From the sequence record NC_048002.1: 39,883 bases of DNA; one strand, written 5' to 3'. A program made the translations under genes and the position numbers. The first letter of the stretch is position 1. Every line of letters starts with the position of its first letter. Positions 1 through 39,883 of this stretch are shown here, piece after piece. A model generated the notes under the pieces. It searched no databases and had not been told where the DNA came from. It saw nothing but the letters and a program-made list of their open reading frames with translations. Origin of the DNA: Escherichia phage SRT7.

Positions 1-175
1 AGGGACTGAGGCATAACCAAATGTCACCAAAGGTCTCCCAAATGTCACCAAATGTCTCACCGCACCACCTCAGGAGAACCAAAGGTGAACTGAAAGAGGA
101 ACCAAAGGGGAAAGGGACACCAAAGGTGAACTGAAAGAGGCCTATGGGGGAACTTTGGGAGTTGTATCTTTGAGA
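1..175. repeat. Direct terminal repeat, 175 bp, identical to 39709-39883 (phage right-end copy in conventional orientation)
   Basis: First 175 nt match the last 175 nt of the window exactly; contains short CCAAAGG repeats. Confidence 0.95.
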
Positions 176-9404: not shown

Positions 9405-11822
9405 TTAGTCAATTAGACGGTTAATCTTCGCTTTGGTGTCCTTAGGTGCCTTGGCGGTTTTCCGCTTAGGCTTTGGTGCGATAGGCTCACCGGACTGGAG
9501 GTCCTTACGAATCTCACCACCGTAGATGCTGTTAGGCACCTGAGCTTTCTTAGCGCGTACACGTTTAGAGCCAGCTTCACGAGCAGACTTAGCCGCCGTG
9601 ATAGGTGCTCGCTTATTGGCGTCCTTCAGGGCCTGTTCAAGTTTAGCCTTGTCCTTCGCCTGTTGCTCAGCAGCACGTTTAGCGTTCGCATCGTCTTCGG
9701 CCTTCTGTGCCTCAATCATATCAGCGCGAGAGATAATCTTAGGCATCTGACCAGCAGCACCAGTGATAAGCACGATATCTTGGTCAGCGTTGTAGTTCAC
9801 ATTAACGTAGGCGCTTGAGATTTTACCCTCGGTAGCCACTTGGTTAATGAACCCTTCCATGTGACGCTTGCCGTTGGTTGCATCAAACCCGTTGCCATTC
9901 TCAAGGAATGACGTAGGGATAGCACCCTGTAGGCGACCAGCAGTGTTCCCAGAGCCACCGGCGCTAAACGTGGTAGTGAACCCCTCAGCCATCCTATCGG
10001 CGGCTTTAAGGGCTTTCCGTGTGTCTCCGTGGTCGTGCATCTCAGCGAGGTACACTTGGTAAGCTGCACCAGCCTCATCGTGGCTCATGTAGTTCAGGTG
10101 CGGATACTGACCGGAGTTCGTCAGGAAATTCTCATAGGAGGCAGCACCTTTATCAGGCTTCTTACTCAGAGAGTTTCGCTCACGTTCGCCTTTAACGAAC
10201 TGCTCGTTAGTCAGGCCGTACTTCTTCATGGTGTACATCTGGGCAATCAGCTCGCCCTGCTCAGGGAATAACTTAACGAACCCCGCAGGGTCAGCCTCGT
10301 AGTACGCCTTGAGTTGGTCCAGCTCGGTCCCTTTAAGTTCAGCACCACGAAGGATAGCACCAGACAAATCGTTGGTTGCAGCTTCAACGCTTGGAGCCAT
10401 AACCTTCTGAGGCCACCCGGTCTTCCCGGAGACACTCGCCAGCTTCATCCACTGTTGAGCCTTTTGCTCAGGGGACAGGTTCGGGTCATTCATGATATCA
10501 TTACGATACTTGTTGAATGCGTTCGTGAAGTCTTCCTCTTTGTACTCACCAGTGTTGTCGTCGGTAGGCATCGTTGAGGTACTCAAAGGAACCGCAAAGT
10601 CACCATTCATCGCTCGCGTAATGTTTCCGTACACGTTTGTCTCACGGTTGAACTTCTGGTTGGCCTTATCATTCTCAGTTGTCTTCTTAGCCGTCTCACG
10701 CGCAAGTCGGTCCTTAAGGGACTGCTCAACACGGTCGATACGGTCTAGGGCTGCTGTTTGTGCGCTACCCGGCTGCATCTTGTTGTAGAAGTCCCGCTGC
10801 TTACGCAACTCCTCCAGACCCAGATTGATGTCGGTAGAGCGCTCAATACCGCCCATAGTTGACTCAAAGATACTCGCACGTTCACGGTCCTGTGTCATTA
10901 AGGATTGGTTAGCGTTAGCGAGATATGAATCCCACGACTCCTTACCTACGTAGTCCTTAATCTTCACACGGCTACCGTATAGTTCAACTTCCTGTTCGCC
11001 AAGAGCTACCAGAGCGGCACCACCTTGCGCATGATTGGAAGTGTTCTTTACGGCATCTAGTAATACAGACTCGCGCTGCTTATCATTCAATAGGGCACCC
11101 TGACGGGTCTGCTCCAGATAGCCAGTCACCGAGGTCGCATATTGTTCACCGTTCGTCGCATTAAGACCGTGGAGTGAACCACTTAAAGTCTGCTTAGCGT
11201 TGACGATTGCAGCATTCTCGTTGAACTGAGCCTTATGTGAATCCCACACGTCATTCGTTGAGATTTCACGTTGCTGAATGTTGGACGCTAAGCCGAACTG
11301 GAAGTGCTCGTCGTTGGTGTCGATACCGTACAGCTTGGCATCCTGCTCAGCGAAGAGCTTGCGCAACTCGGCTTTGTCCTTGTTCATCTGGGCTTCATCT
11401 TCCTGACTGAACGACCCATACTTACCGTCTTTGATTCTCTGCTGAATCTCAGCGTCTGCCCGGAACGAAGCGTTAGACCCCATGTTCTCACGCATGAACT
11501 GCATGGCGAACTTGTTGTCTTGGTAACGCAAGGTCCCATCGTTGAACGCCTTACGATATTCATCAGGATTCTCACGAGCGAACTTGGTCAGCCATTCGGC
11601 CTGTTGCTTGCCAGCTTTCTCCTGTTCGTCCTCGTAGCGCCCAAAGGCAGCACCAGCCGACTTCCCGAAGTTCTCAAGGGAATCCAGAAGACCACTCTTG
11701 ACGTTGTTCGGTGTGCCAACCTGTGCAGCCTGATAGTTAGCCCCAGCGAGGGAGCCACCACGCAGACGCGAGGCAGCAGCTTGAGGATTACTCTGGAGAG
11801 CTGTTTGAATACGACTAGCCAT
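9405..11822 (-). CDS. gp15: Internal virion protein C (T7 gp15-like)
   Basis: 805 aa; position between gp14 and gp16; size and composition. Confidence 0.85.
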   Translation of the reverse strand: MASRIQTALQSNPQAAASRLRGGSLAGANYQAAQVGTPNNVKSGLLDSLENFGKSAGAAFGRYEDEQEKAGKQQAEWLTKFARENPDEYRKAFNDGTLRYQDNKFAMQFMRENMGSNASFRADAEIQQRIKDGKYGSFSQEDEAQMNKDKAELRKLFAEQDAKLYGIDTNDEHFQFGLASNIQQREISTNDVWDSHKAQFNENAAIVNAKQTLSGSLHGLNATNGEQYATSVTGYLEQTRQGALLNDKQRESVLLDAVKNTSNHAQGGAALVALGEQEVELYGSRVKIKDYVGKESWDSYLANANQSLMTQDRERASIFESTMGGIERSTDINLGLEELRKQRDFYNKMQPGSAQTAALDRIDRVEQSLKDRLARETAKKTTENDKANQKFNRETNVYGNITRAMNGDFAVPLSTSTMPTDDNTGEYKEEDFTNAFNKYRNDIMNDPNLSPEQKAQQWMKLASVSGKTGWPQKVMAPSVEAATNDLSGAILRGAELKGTELDQLKAYYEADPAGFVKLFPEQGELIAQMYTMKKYGLTNEQFVKGERERNSLSKKPDKGAASYENFLTNSGQYPHLNYMSHDEAGAAYQVYLAEMHDHGDTRKALKAADRMAEGFTTTFSAGGSGNTAGRLQGAIPTSFLENGNGFDATNGKRHMEGFINQVATEGKISSAYVNVNYNADQDIVLITGAAGQMPKIISRADMIEAQKAEDDANAKRAAEQQAKDKAKLEQALKDANKRAPITAAKSAREAGSKRVRAKKAQVPNSIYGGEIRKDLQSGEPIAPKPKRKTAKAPKDTKAKINRLID

Positions 11823-26164: not shown

Positions 26165-26186
26165 GTTCCCTATAGTGTGGGTTAAT
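26165..26186 (-). promoter_or_regulatory. Phage RNAP promoter (phi4.3-like; GGGAAC initiating variant)
   Basis: Minus ATTAACCCACACTATAGGGAAC. Confidence 0.8.
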
Positions 26187-26263
26187 GTCGTGAAGGACAG
26201 ACACAAGGTCTATCCCAAGGGCAGTTGCATTGTGTGGTCAGCTTCCAGTCAGGTTCTAGTTGA

Positions 26264-28092
<1,829 letters not shown>

Positions 28093-28109: not shown

Positions 28110-28559
28110 TTACTTAGCCGTCACCAGCTCGTTTGTGTCAAGCCAACGCTTCACGTCAAAACTCGGACAAGCCTTAGCAGCAAAGTCACGGTGGCCCTTA
28201 ATGGCTACACCGGGGAACTTAACTTTCAGTTCGTCCAGAAGTTTACGCAGGGTAGCCATCTGCTGAGGCGTAAAGTTAGCCTGTGGCTGCATCTTATCGT
28301 CAACACCACCAACCAAGCAGATGCCTACGGATGAGTCGTTCTGACCTACCGTATGTGCACCAACCTGATTAACGTCACGACCAGTCTCGATAGTACCATC
28401 GCGTCGAATGATGAAGTGATAACCAACATCCAGAAAGCCACGCTCTTTATGCCACTGACGGATTTCACGCAGACCAATGTTCATGGTGGGCTTAGTTGCC
28501 GCACAGTGGACAATCAGGGTCTTGGTAGCTGCTCGTTCCTTGAACTTTACGTTAGCCAC
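28110..28559 (-). CDS. gp3.5: Lysozyme / N-acetylmuramoyl-L-alanine amidase (T7 gp3.5-like)
   Basis: GTG start at 28559 (MANVKFKERA..., 149 aa) with AAGGTGG RBS; HCAATKP...REIRQWHKE..DVGYHFII matches T7 gp3.5. Confidence 0.92.
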   Translation of the reverse strand: MANVKFKERAATKTLIVHCAATKPTMNIGLREIRQWHKERGFLDVGYHFIIRRDGTIETGRDVNQVGAHTVGQNDSSVGICLVGGVDDKMQPQANFTPQQMATLRKLLDELKVKFPGVAIKGHRDFAAKACPSFDVKRWLDTNELVTAK

Positions 28560-28785
28560 GAGACACCACCTTAGCTTCAATCTCAACCAGCGTCACCATC
28601 TCATCAGGCTTGATGCTGTAACGGGAACCAGTGGTCAGGTCAACGGATGCTACCCACGCACAGTCACCGTCATGATCTGTCTTAATCATGATGACACCGT
28701 TTGGGTGCTCAAAGGTCACACCAGCGCGGATAGAACCGTAGGCTACCTTGCGCTCTTCAGGGTGTTTATTGGTCAGTTTAATCAT
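28552..28785 (-). CDS. Hypothetical protein (77 aa) between endonuclease I and lysozyme genes
   Basis: ATG overlaps gp3 stop (ATGA); stop overlaps gp3.5 GTG start; GAGGGG RBS; no gene at this position in recalled T7 map. Confidence 0.6.
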   Translation of the reverse strand: MIKLTNKHPEERKVAYGSIRAGVTFEHPNGVIMIKTDHDGDCAWVASVDLTTGSRYSIKPDEMVTLVEIEAKVVSRG

Positions 28786-29231
28786 TTTCGTTTCCCCTCT
28801 TTAAGTTTATCGAATGGTACTTCACGCTTAGGCTCCTTTAGCCAACTTACCGGAATCAACTTGTCAGCGAACTGAATGTTGTGCTTCTCGCAAAATTCCG
28901 CATAACTGGTAGGAGACCCCTTGTAAATCTTGGTGCGACTGCTTGAGAACACCATGCGAATATCCAGTTCAGGATACTGTTCGCGAATCAATAGATGCTT
29001 CTTGCGGTCTTCGGCTTCCCAGAGCCCTTTGGTTTCCACGAAGATACCATTAGGTAACAGGAAGTCAGGCGTGTAATGGTGATTACTGGCTGGCACCACA
29101 TAGGGAACCTTCCAGACCTCATAGTCGAACTTCACGCCCTTGGCCTCAAGCTGCTTTGAGACCTTATCCTCAAGGCCGGAGCGGTATGCCCCGACCCGAA
29201 GATTACCTTTCGCAGCGTATGGATTAGCCAC
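28782..29231 (-). CDS. gp3: Endonuclease I, Holliday junction resolvase (T7 gp3-like)
   Basis: 149 aa; GTG start; FRSGLEDKVSKQLE..VPYV.PASNH.YTPDFLLPNGIFVETKGLWE matches T7 gp3. Confidence 0.93.
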   Translation of the reverse strand: MANPYAAKGNLRVGAYRSGLEDKVSKQLEAKGVKFDYEVWKVPYVVPASNHHYTPDFLLPNGIFVETKGLWEAEDRKKHLLIREQYPELDIRMVFSSSRTKIYKGSPTSYAEFCEKHNIQFADKLIPVSWLKEPKREVPFDKLKEGKRK

Positions 29232-30018: not shown

Positions 30019-30040
30019 TGTCCCTATAGTGTGGGTTATT
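30019..30040 (-). promoter_or_regulatory. Phage RNAP promoter (phi2.5-like; variant -17..-13 and GGGACA)
   Basis: Minus TAATAACCCACACTATAGGGACA; overlaps 3' end of gene 2. Confidence 0.75.
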
Positions 30041-30221
30041 AGACGGCTGGACGAACTCGGAGCACCTCAAAGCCTACCGGAGTATACTTAAAGGTTGCCA
30101 AATCGTGTGCCTCTTCGAGAGACCCTGCGAATACAGGCACCTCCAGCTCGCCATCAACGTAACTGAGCGTCACGAAGTACTTCTTATCGGTTGGGACGAG
30201 GCGTCCCTTCTCAATGGTCAT
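30039..30221 (-). CDS. gp2: Host RNA polymerase inhibitor (T7 gp2-like)
   Basis: Start at ATG 30221 (MTIEKGR..., 60 aa) with AAGGAGAAAGG RBS; C-terminus VGFEVLRVRP resembles T7 gp2. Confidence 0.75.
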   Translation of the reverse strand: MTIEKGRLVPTDKKYFVTLSYVDGELEVPVFAGSLEEAHDLATFKYTPVGFEVLRVRPAV

Positions 30222-39708: not shown

Positions 39709-39883
39709 AGGGACTGAGGCATAACCAAATGTCACCAAAGGTCTCCCAAATGTCACCAAATGTCTCACCGCACCACCTCAGGAGAACCAAAGGTGAACTG
39801 AAAGAGGAACCAAAGGGGAAAGGGACACCAAAGGTGAACTGAAAGAGGCCTATGGGGGAACTTTGGGAGTTGTATCTTTGAGA
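39709..39883. repeat. Direct terminal repeat, 175 bp, identical to 1-175 (phage left-end copy)
   Basis: Exact match to the first 175 nt of the window. Confidence 0.95.

What the first reader, a model, noticed from the sequence alone, without database searches (positions are those of the whole stretch)
28552..28785. 77-aa gene wedged between endonuclease I and lysozyme with overlapping start and stop
The ATG forms an ATGA overlap with the gene 3 stop, and the stop codon overlaps the GTG start of gene 3.5 (CGTGGCTAA). Such double coupling argues for a real translated gene. I recall no gene at this position in T7.
Basis: partly seen in the sequence, partly recalled or inferred. Interest (0 to 1): 0.4.

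Follow-up and report, generated by a model that had tools for sequence, protein, structure and literature searches.

The report
Small accessory gene before phage lysozyme
The 77-codon reading frame is a real, conserved but dispensable small phage gene of unknown function, already catalogued as a hypothetical protein, that slots between two core T7-type genes without breaking their linked translation.

Summary
On the minus strand, an ATG at 28785 overlaps the endonuclease I stop (ATGA). The TAA at 28552-28554 overlaps the GTG start of the amidase/lysozyme gene (GTGGCTAA).

The gene is real:
- Its codon usage matches the phage only in this frame.
- dN/dS is 0.06-0.35.
- The frame stays open in homologues down to about 30% identity.
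- A confident all-beta, SH3-like model is predicted (pLDDT 82).

The window is Escherichia phage SRT7 or a near-identical phage. The same protein is already in UniProt as "uncharacterized protein" and matches PHROG families 6570 and 7832 (unknown function).

Homologues sit at this same junction in at least 13 T7-like phages or contigs, including Pectobacterium PP47 gp22, Morganella MP2 gp20 and Klebsiella MT09. In Yersinia phi80-18-like phages they sit elsewhere. Close relatives lack the gene precisely (P1723; PP81 versus PP47), and one copy is frameshifted, so it is dispensable.

Its 3' codons (E-[AK]-V-V) encode the ribosome-binding site for whatever gene follows, so it behaves as a plug-in cassette.

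No Pfam, NCBIfam, PADLOC or PDB sequence match gives a function. My best inference is a middle-expressed binding protein that targets a host factor. This is ordinary for T7-like phages, so interest is low.

The parts
28552..28785 (-). 77-aa accessory gene (8.5 kDa, pI 6.3), including its TAA stop. Protein: MIKLTNKHPEERKVAYGSIRAGVTFEHPNGVIMIKTDHDGDCAWVASVDLTTGSRYSIKPDEMVTLVEIEAKVVSRG
   Evidence: ORF list; codon usage and GC like the genome; dN/dS 0.06-0.35; phrog_7832 E=3.6e-6 and phrog_6570 E=4e-5 over the full length; AF2 pLDDT 82; 100% identical to UniProt A0A2Z5H3I5 of phage SRT7.
28794..28799 (-). Shine-Dalgarno-like GAGGGG for the 77-aa gene, inside the last codons of the endonuclease I gene
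   Evidence: Read from the sequence. In the relative P1723, which lacks the gene, the equivalent AAGGAGG serves the endolysin start.
28782..28785 (-). ATGA overlap: start of the 77-aa gene and stop of gene 3
   Evidence: The same 4-nt overlap occurs in L002, L003, L005-L010, L013 and L017.
28566..28572 (-). Shine-Dalgarno-like AAGGTGG for the amidase gene, encoded by codons A-K-V-V of the 77-aa gene, 6 nt before the GTG
   Evidence: Read from the sequence. An equivalent GAGGTGG is present at the 3' end of most family members, including phi80-18 g22, where the downstream gene is unrelated; MT09 has GAGGTTA.
28552..28559 (-). GTGGCTAA overlap: GTG start of the amidase gene and TAA stop of the 77-aa gene
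   Evidence: An 8-nt overlap (A/G)TGnCTA(A/G) is conserved in most homologues. Two exceptions: MP2 has a 4-nt ATGA overlap, and the frameshifted copy in L010 no longer overlaps the amidase gene.
28782..29231 (-). Gene 3, endonuclease I (upstream neighbour)
   Evidence: Pfam PF05367 E=4.7e-80.
28110..28559 (-). Gene 3.5, N-acetylmuramoyl-L-alanine amidase / T7-type lysozyme (downstream neighbour, GTG start)
   Evidence: Pfam PF01510 E=9.7e-17; phrog_822 E=1.8e-75.
30020..30044 (-). Nearest upstream phage-RNA-polymerase promoter (phi2.5-like; TAATAACCCACACTATAGGGAC on the minus strand). It heads the transcription unit 2.5 - 3 - 77aa - 3.5 - 36aa - 4
   Evidence: One of 12 copies of the repeat family. 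No sigma-70-like promoter or terminator on the minus strand between 27900 and 30100.
26166..26190 (-). Next phage promoter downstream, inside the end of the primase/helicase gene. It bounds the region that has no internal phage promoter

Best explanation
This is a genuine, dispensable accessory gene of T7-like phages. It belongs to the PP47 gp22 / MP2 gp20 / phrog_6570 group.

Shown:
- It lies in the middle (DNA-metabolism) transcription unit, downstream of the phi2.5-type phage promoter.
- Its ribosome-binding site sits in the last codons of gene 3, and its ATG overlaps the gene 3 stop.
- Its own last codons (E-A-K-V-V-S-R-G) encode the ribosome-binding site and overlap the start codon of the lysozyme gene. 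The cassette can therefore be inserted or lost 'start codon to start codon' without breaking the chain of coupled translation.
- It encodes an 8.5-kDa, near-neutral protein predicted to be all-beta, with an SH3-like small-barrel fold and no catalytic motif.

Inferred:
- Ribosomes finishing gene 3 reinitiate on this gene, and ribosomes finishing it reinitiate on gene 3.5.
- The protein works as a binding module against a host protein or defence factor during the middle phase and raises phage productivity on some hosts. This is how most characterised small class II T7 proteins act (gp2, gp4.5, gp5.5, gp5.7, gp5.9; from my own knowledge).
For: Real gene:
- Codon log-likelihood is +0.44 per codon in frame and negative in all five other frames; GC is 0.504 against 0.505 for the genome.
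- dN/dS is 0.06-0.35 across five pairs.
- Only this frame stays open in 11 homologous loci.

Family:
- Close relatives at 84-99% identity.
- Relatives at 51-54% and 38% identity.
- Profile-profile comparison between the SRT7-type and PP47/MP2/phi80-18-type sub-alignments gives 98.9% probability, E=2.9e-17.
- All 12 members tested match phrog_6570.

Same locus, endonuclease I | X | amidase:
- Nine distinct metagenomic contigs.
- Cultured phages MP2, MT09, PP47, MA6 and MA1A.

Dispensable:
- P1723, the closest match in the phage collection (about 91% nucleotide identity in the flanks), goes straight from endonuclease I to endolysin.
- PP81 lacks what PP47 has, through an exact ATG-to-ATG indel.
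- L010 carries a frameshifted copy.

Coupling signals at both ends.

Transcription unit.

Fold:
- AF2 pLDDT 82.4, pTM 0.70, eight strands.
- Foldseek finds many 70-87-aa uncharacterised phage proteins at TM 0.7-0.8.
- In the PDB, the nearest folds are eIF5A N-domain, ribosomal L2, FeoA and SH3/Tudor barrels.

Correlative phenotype: PMC7693777 reports gp22 as the only gene-content difference between PP47 and PP81. PP81 has a longer latent period and a burst of 64, against 163 for PP47.
Against: - No experiment shows translation or function.
- No significant match in Pfam, NCBIfam, PADLOC or PDB sequences.
- The PDB fold matches are weak (E about 0.1-1, TM about 0.5), so the fold class says only 'small beta-barrel'.
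- No domain fusions exist to hint at a partner; all members are 66-79 aa.
- PP47 and PP81 also differ by about 2% of their nucleotides, so the growth difference cannot be assigned to this gene.
- The host-factor-binding role rests only on analogy with other T7 class II small proteins.
Confidence: 0.7

Rival explanations
1. The gene mainly acts in cis as a translational spacer or tuner for the lysozyme gene. By placing a translated ORF, a weaker AAGGTGG ribosome-binding site and a GTG start in front of gene 3.5, it sets the amount of lysozyme. From my own knowledge, T7 lysozyme also inhibits the phage RNA polymerase, so its dose shapes timing and burst. The protein product would be secondary.
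For: - The most conserved stretch at nucleotide level is the 3' end, which carries the ribosome-binding site and the overlapping start.
- Lysozyme starts with GTG in the SRT7-type clade, but with ATG in P1723, which lacks the gene.
- PP47 and PP81 differ in latent period and burst, a phenotype of the kind that lysozyme dose would affect.
Against: - Purifying selection acts on the whole protein, and core residues (G22, F25, IK-TD, G40, L50, G53, S57) are conserved down to 30% identity.
- A confident folded domain is predicted.
- The family also sits upstream of an unrelated 60-aa gene in phi80-18-like phages, far from any lysozyme gene.
- No stable or covarying RNA structure surrounds the gene 3.5 start (z = -0.06).
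Confidence: 0.12
2. The protein is a free-standing SH3b-like cell-wall-binding or regulatory partner of the adjacent amidase. It would bind gp3.5 or peptidoglycan and modulate lysis or the lysozyme-RNA polymerase interaction.
For: - It is always directly upstream of, and translationally coupled to, the amidase gene in Studiervirinae.
- The fold is SH3-like.
- There is a weak Pfam hit to SH3_16 (E=0.14).
- A 77-aa structural neighbour in BFVD is labelled 'Endolysin' (rank 25).
Against: - The SH3_16 hit (12.4 bits) is far below the cut-off of 25.8 and is seen in only 1 of 12 members.
- The best PDB neighbours are translation-factor, KOW and Tudor-type barrels, not SH3b.
- Family members in phi80-18-like phages are not next to a lysis gene.
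- The constant position in Studiervirinae is explained by recombination within the conserved flanking genes: the segment replaced in P1723 extends into the first ~12 amidase codons.
- From my own knowledge, amidases of phages of Gram-negative hosts do not normally need a wall-binding module.
Confidence: 0.08
3. The ORF is a chance open frame in an intergenic spacer, or the real gene is the 132-aa ORF on the opposite strand (28477..28875, +).
For: A 132-aa antisense ORF spans the region. It is open in the four closest sequences.
Against: - The antisense frame has 2-5 stops in the 51-54%-identity and more distant homologues, and a negative codon score.
- It overlaps two well-established genes.
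- The sense frame is conserved, under purifying selection and predicted to fold.
Confidence: 0.01

Closest known systems
Pectobacterium phage PP47 gp22 (APW79759.1), with MA6 gp28 and MA1A gp33
   Same: A 79-aa hypothetical protein at the same site, endonuclease I | X | lysozyme, with the same 8-nt ATGGCTAA overlap onto the lysozyme start. It is homologous (tblastn MT09 to PP47 1e-7; profile-profile 98.9%). It is present or absent between near-identical phages (PP47 versus PP81), as with the window versus P1723.
   Different: Only about 30% identical to the window protein. It has a 2-nt gap rather than an ATGA overlap with gene 3. [quoted passage not shown]
Morganella phage vB_MmoP_MP2 gp20 (ANM46376.1) and the unannotated 75-aa ORF of Klebsiella phage MT09
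   Same: Same locus, same family, same predicted fold (BFVD TM 0.79-0.82 for MP2 gp20).
   Different: About 33% identity. MP2 has its own ribosome-binding site after a 21-nt gap, and a 4-nt overlap downstream.
PHROG families 6570 and 7832 (unknown function); Yersinia phage phi80-18 g22 and fHe-Yen3-01 homologue
   Same: Full-length HMM matches. Same size, the same C-terminal E-V-V-V ribosome-binding-site motif and the same 8-nt overlap with the next gene.
   Different: In these Melnykvirinae the gene sits between the helicase and a small ORF plus ligase, not next to a lysozyme.
Small class II accessory proteins of T7 (gp2, gp4.5, gp5.5, gp5.7, gp5.9)
   Same: They work in a similar setting: small, non-essential, middle-expressed, variably present between core genes. 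Each binds and neutralises one host protein (from my own knowledge).
   Different: No sequence or fold relationship was detected. No target is known for the 77-aa protein. The window holds no paralogue.
SH3-like small beta-barrels (eIF5A N-domain, ribosomal L2, KOW, Tudor, FeoA)
   Same: Foldseek probability up to 0.99, about 65-75 aligned residues.
   Different: E-values 0.1-1, TM about 0.5, 10-15% identity, and no sequence-level signal. This is a fold-class resemblance only and does not indicate function.

Membership tests
phrog_6570 / phrog_7832 (phage proteins of unknown function) | Full-length match to the family HMM | tested here: met
   Window protein: phrog_7832 E=3.6e-6 (residues 2-74 on profile positions 1-75 of 77) and phrog_6570 E=4e-5 (3-74 on 2-70 of 72). 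All 12 relatives match phrog_6570, best E=1.7e-27.
PP47 gp22-like genes of Studiervirinae | Sequence homology to PP47 gp22, MP2 gp20 and the MT09 ORF | tested here: met
   hhalign of independent sub-alignments A4 versus A9: probability 98.9%, E=2.9e-17, 69 columns. Chain of pairwise hits.
PP47 gp22-like genes of Studiervirinae | Position between endonuclease I and the amidase, translationally overlapping the amidase start | tested here: met
   for the window. for the relatives.
SH3-like small beta-barrel fold | Significant structural superposition on solved SH3-like, KOW or Tudor barrels | tested here: inconclusive
   Foldseek against PDB: best E=0.11, probability 0.99, TMq 0.48-0.57. The model is all-beta with 8 strands.
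SH3b cell-wall-binding domains (e.g. Pfam SH3_16) | HMM score above the Pfam gathering threshold | tested here: not met
   12.4 bits against a cut-off of 25.8, E=0.14, in 1 of 12 members.
Canonical T7 gene set | An orthologous gene at this position in T7 | tested here: not met
   In T7, gene 3 (10257-10706) abuts gene 3.5 (10706-11161).
Known defence-system proteins (PADLOC) | HMM match | tested here: not met
   No hit at E<=1 for 5 family members.
Known anti-defence proteins | Match to a curated anti-defence family, or a demonstrated counter-defence phenotype | not testable with these tools
   No anti-defence library was available. The motif was absent from the supplementary tables of the phage accessory-gene screen 10.1101/2023.04.06.535777.

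The most novel reading that the evidence does not exclude
The family could be a self-contained 'plug-in' translational cassette. It would carry the ribosome-binding site and overlapping start for any downstream gene, and spread among podophages by recombination in the flanking core genes. Its SH3-like product would be a previously unrecognised inhibitor of a host factor or defence (or a modulator of the lysozyme-RNA polymerase circuit). That activity would account for the roughly 2.5-fold larger burst and shorter latent period of PP47 compared with PP81.
Probability: 0.25. Interest if true: 0.45.

Novelty: already known. Interest (0 to 1): 0.22.

Why it matters
The gene adds one more conserved, dispensable small protein to the poorly understood accessory gene pool of T7-like phages.

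Two natural presence/absence pairs offer ready-made isogenic comparisons for finding its function: SRT7-like versus P1723, and PP47 versus PP81.

The arrangement also shows how an extra gene can be spliced into a chain of translationally coupled genes without disturbing it. That is useful for phage engineering.

It does not bear on any major open question.

Tried and rejected
Searches that found nothing:
- tblastn of the 77-aa protein against 50,697 phage records found nothing, even at E<=10. The SRT7 record itself seems to be absent from that collection. Relatives in cultured phages were reached only through the intermediate P0034.
- Scans of IMG/VR and JGI metagenome contigs, with the protein, with P0040 and with the close-clade alignment, found no relatives. 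The wider alignment was too variable to scan with.
- Pfam, NCBIfam, PADLOC, PDB-sequence and Rfam searches gave nothing significant.
- Literature searches and the supplements of the phage accessory-gene screen gave no functional data beyond PMC7693777.

Leads rejected:
- The exhaustive HMMER search returned long repeat proteins (cadherin-like, T9SS-sorted, beta-propeller-like) with 3-18 partial matches. Inspection showed these match only the short 'LIKTDxxGDxxW' hairpin motif repeated many times, so I rejected them as homologues.
- RNA structure sequestering the lysozyme start: z-score -0.06 and no covariation.
- A paralogue elsewhere in the window: none.
- The antisense 132-aa ORF.

Full report
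**1. What is in the sequence**

The window is a complete T7-like phage genome read in reverse.
- It has 175-nt terminal direct repeats.
- It carries 12 copies of a phage-polymerase promoter, ATTAACCCACACTATAGGGAG on the minus strand.
- The canonical gene order runs on the minus strand.

At 28552..28785 (minus strand) there is a 77-codon ORF.
- Its ATG (28785-28783) overlaps the TGA of the endonuclease I gene as ATGA. That gene is 28782..29231, Pfam Phage_endo_I, E=4.7e-80.
- Its TAA (28554-28552) lies within GTGGCTAA. The GTG there (28559-28557) starts the amidase/lysozyme gene, 28110..28559, Amidase_2 E=9.7e-17 and phrog_822 E=1.8e-75 (sequence).
- A GAGGGG ribosome-binding site lies 8 nt before the ATG.
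- An AAGGTGG site, encoded by codons A-K-V-V of the ORF, lies 6 nt before the lysozyme GTG.

T7 has no gene at this junction: gene 3 ends and gene 3.5 starts at nucleotide 10706.

**2. Is it a gene?**

Yes.
- Codon usage scored against the phage's large genes is +0.44 bits per codon in frame. It is -1.08 and -1.15 in the other sense frames and -0.20 to -0.74 antisense. GC (0.504) equals the genome's (0.505).
- Close relatives (99, 88 and 84% identity) give dN/dS of 0.06-0.54. Relatives at 51-54% identity give about 0.3.
- Across 11 homologous loci, only this frame is free of stops.
- The 132-aa ORF on the opposite strand (28477..28875) is interrupted in the more distant homologues, so it is spurious.
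- AlphaFold2, with a 12-sequence alignment, gives a confident all-beta model: pLDDT 82.4, pTM 0.70, eight strands.

**3. Identity and relatives**

Foldseek against BFVD returned UniProt A0A2Z5H3I5, 'Uncharacterized protein [Escherichia phage SRT7]', 77 aa and 100% identical. The window is therefore SRT7 (genus Foetvirus) or a near-identical phage, and the gene is already annotated as a hypothetical protein.

The protein matches phrog_7832 (E=3.6e-6) and phrog_6570 (E=4e-5) over its full length. Both families have unknown function. All 12 relatives tested match phrog_6570.

The exhaustive HMMER search and the profile searches found only about 15 clusters of small proteins (66-79 aa) and no domain fusions.

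Long repeat proteins match only the short 'LIKTDxxGDxxW' hairpin motif. I rejected them as homologues.

A profile-profile comparison of two independently built sub-alignments gives 98.9% probability, E=2.9e-17. One sub-alignment is the SRT7-type clade; the other is the PP47/MP2/phi80-18-type clade.

**4. Genomic context**

In Studiervirinae the gene is always endonuclease I | X | amidase.
- Metagenomic contigs: L002-L010 and L017.
- Cultured phages: Morganella MP2 gp20, Klebsiella MT09, Pectobacterium PP47 gp22, MA6 and MA1A.

In Melnykvirinae-type phages (Yersinia phi80-18 g22, fHe-Yen3-01, contig L016) it lies between the helicase and a small ORF plus ligase.

The upstream junction varies: an ATGA overlap, a 2-nt gap in PP47, and a 21-nt gap with its own ribosome-binding site in MP2. 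The 3' end is the constant feature. The C-terminal E-(A-K)-V-V codons spell GAGGTGG or AAGGTGG (GAGGTTA in MT09), and the stop usually overlaps the next start by 8 nt as (A/G)TGnCTA(A/G), whatever the downstream gene is. MP2 overlaps by 4 nt instead, and the frameshifted L010 copy no longer overlaps the amidase gene.

The gene thus carries the translation-initiation signals for its downstream neighbour.

**5. Dispensability and mobility**

- Phage P1723 is the closest match in the phage collection, with about 91% nucleotide identity in the flanks. It goes directly from endonuclease I to endolysin with an ATGA overlap.
- The segment that differs between the window and P1723 extends into the first ~12 amidase codons. 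This indicates exchange by recombination within the conserved flanking genes.
- PP81 (about 98% ANI to PP47, per PMC7693777) lacks the gene through an exact ATG-to-ATG indel.
- Contig L010 carries a frameshifted copy. Frame 0 ends early, and frame 2 restores ...EIEAKVVSRG.
- HNH endonuclease genes come and go at neighbouring junctions in the relatives, so this region is an indel hot spot.

**6. Expression**

The nearest upstream phage promoter is at 30020-30044, before gene 2.5. The next is at 26166-26190. No sigma-70-like promoter or terminator lies on the coding strand in between.

The gene is therefore co-transcribed with genes 2.5, 3, 3.5 and 4 in the middle (class II) unit.

No Rfam family matches the region. 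No significant or covarying RNA structure surrounds the lysozyme start (z = -0.06). Translational coupling is inferred from the overlaps; it has not been shown.

**7. Function**

No Pfam, NCBIfam, PADLOC or PDB-sequence match is significant.

Foldseek against the PDB gives only fold-class resemblance to SH3-like barrels: eIF5A N-domain, ribosomal L2, FeoA, SH3 and Tudor. E-values are 0.1-1 and TM is about 0.5.

Foldseek against BFVD finds dozens of 70-87-aa uncharacterised phage proteins at TM 0.6-0.8, including N4 gp21 and PaP3 ORF65. The fold is a common, unstudied small phage module.

The protein is 8.5 kDa with pI 6.3. It is neither strongly basic (nucleic-acid binder) nor strongly acidic (DNA mimic).

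The only phenotypic hint is correlative. PMC7693777 reports that gp22 is the sole gene-content difference between PP47 and PP81. PP81 has a longer latent period and a burst of 64, against 163 for PP47. The two phages also differ by about 2% of their nucleotides.

By analogy with the characterised class II small proteins of T7 (from my own knowledge), my best guess is a middle-phase binding protein that neutralises or redirects a host factor.

The rivals are less likely, for the reasons given under each. They are a cis-acting tuner of lysozyme translation and a partner of the amidase.

**8. Verdict**

The finding is correct, but it describes an ordinary feature of T7-like phages: a variable, small, hypothetical accessory gene already present in public annotation and in PHROGs.

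This analysis adds three modest points:
- The homology that links SRT7, PP47 gp22, MP2 gp20, MT09 and phi80-18 g22. The PP47 paper had reported no homologues outside Pektosvirus.
- The embedded downstream ribosome-binding site and start, which make the gene a plug-in cassette.
- The SH3-like fold prediction.

Noticed in passing
window 27982..28092 (-): A 36-aa, very hydrophobic ORF ([36 protein letters not shown]) lies between the amidase and the primase/helicase gene, and its stop overlaps the gene 4 ATG. The equivalent ORF in P1723 is annotated 'putative ATP-binding cassette, subfamily B', which is implausible for 36 residues. Its codon score is negative (-0.16) and its GC is low (0.43). There are no significant family hits. 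It could be a small membrane peptide next to the lysis enzyme, or it may not be a gene.
   Followed up: partly
window 28477..28875 (+): A 132-aa ATG ORF lies antisense to the 77-aa gene and to parts of genes 3 and 3.5. It is open only in the four closest sequences, carries 2-5 stops in more distant homologues, and has a negative codon score. It is spurious.
   Followed up: yes
window 1-175 and 39709-39883; promoters at 567, 5401, 12809, 17243, 18273, 20805, 26166, 30020, 31159, 32884, 33283 and 39386: Exact 175-nt terminal direct repeats show that the window is a whole genome in reverse orientation. There are 12 copies of a phage promoter, ATTAACCCACACTATAGGGAG (minus strand), which from memory looks intermediate between the T3 and T7 promoter consensus sequences.
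   Followed up: partly
L001 2021-2494 (P1723); L002 5694-6050; L017 3749-4108; L006 1725-2165: Free-standing HNH endonuclease genes occupy different junctions in close relatives: between genes 2.5 and 3 in P1723, and between the amidase and primase genes in L002 and L017. They are absent from the window at these sites. The gene 2.5-to-4 region is an insertion/deletion hot spot.
   Followed up: no
L010 6001-6260: A frameshifted copy of the 77-aa gene in a 39.6-kb T7-like contig seen in 3 samples. Frame 0 stops after 66 aa, and frame 2 restores ...VEIEAKVVSRG*. This is either decay of the gene in that lineage or an assembly error.
   Followed up: partly
window 29224-29231 and 28552-28559 (-): Gene 3 and gene 3.5 both start with the same octamer GTGGCTAA (GTG start, M-A-N...). 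Two neighbouring core genes using GTG is unusual, since relatives use ATG for the lysozyme (P1723, PP47, MT09).
   Followed up: no
proteins P0005, P0008-P0033: The motif I-K-T-D-x-x-G-D-x-x-W of the 77-aa protein recurs as the core of a roughly 40-50-aa repeat in many T9SS-sorted or beta-propeller-like bacterial surface proteins (e.g. 'VYLIKTDSNGDTLWTK'). This produced misleadingly good whole-protein E-values.
   Followed up: partly
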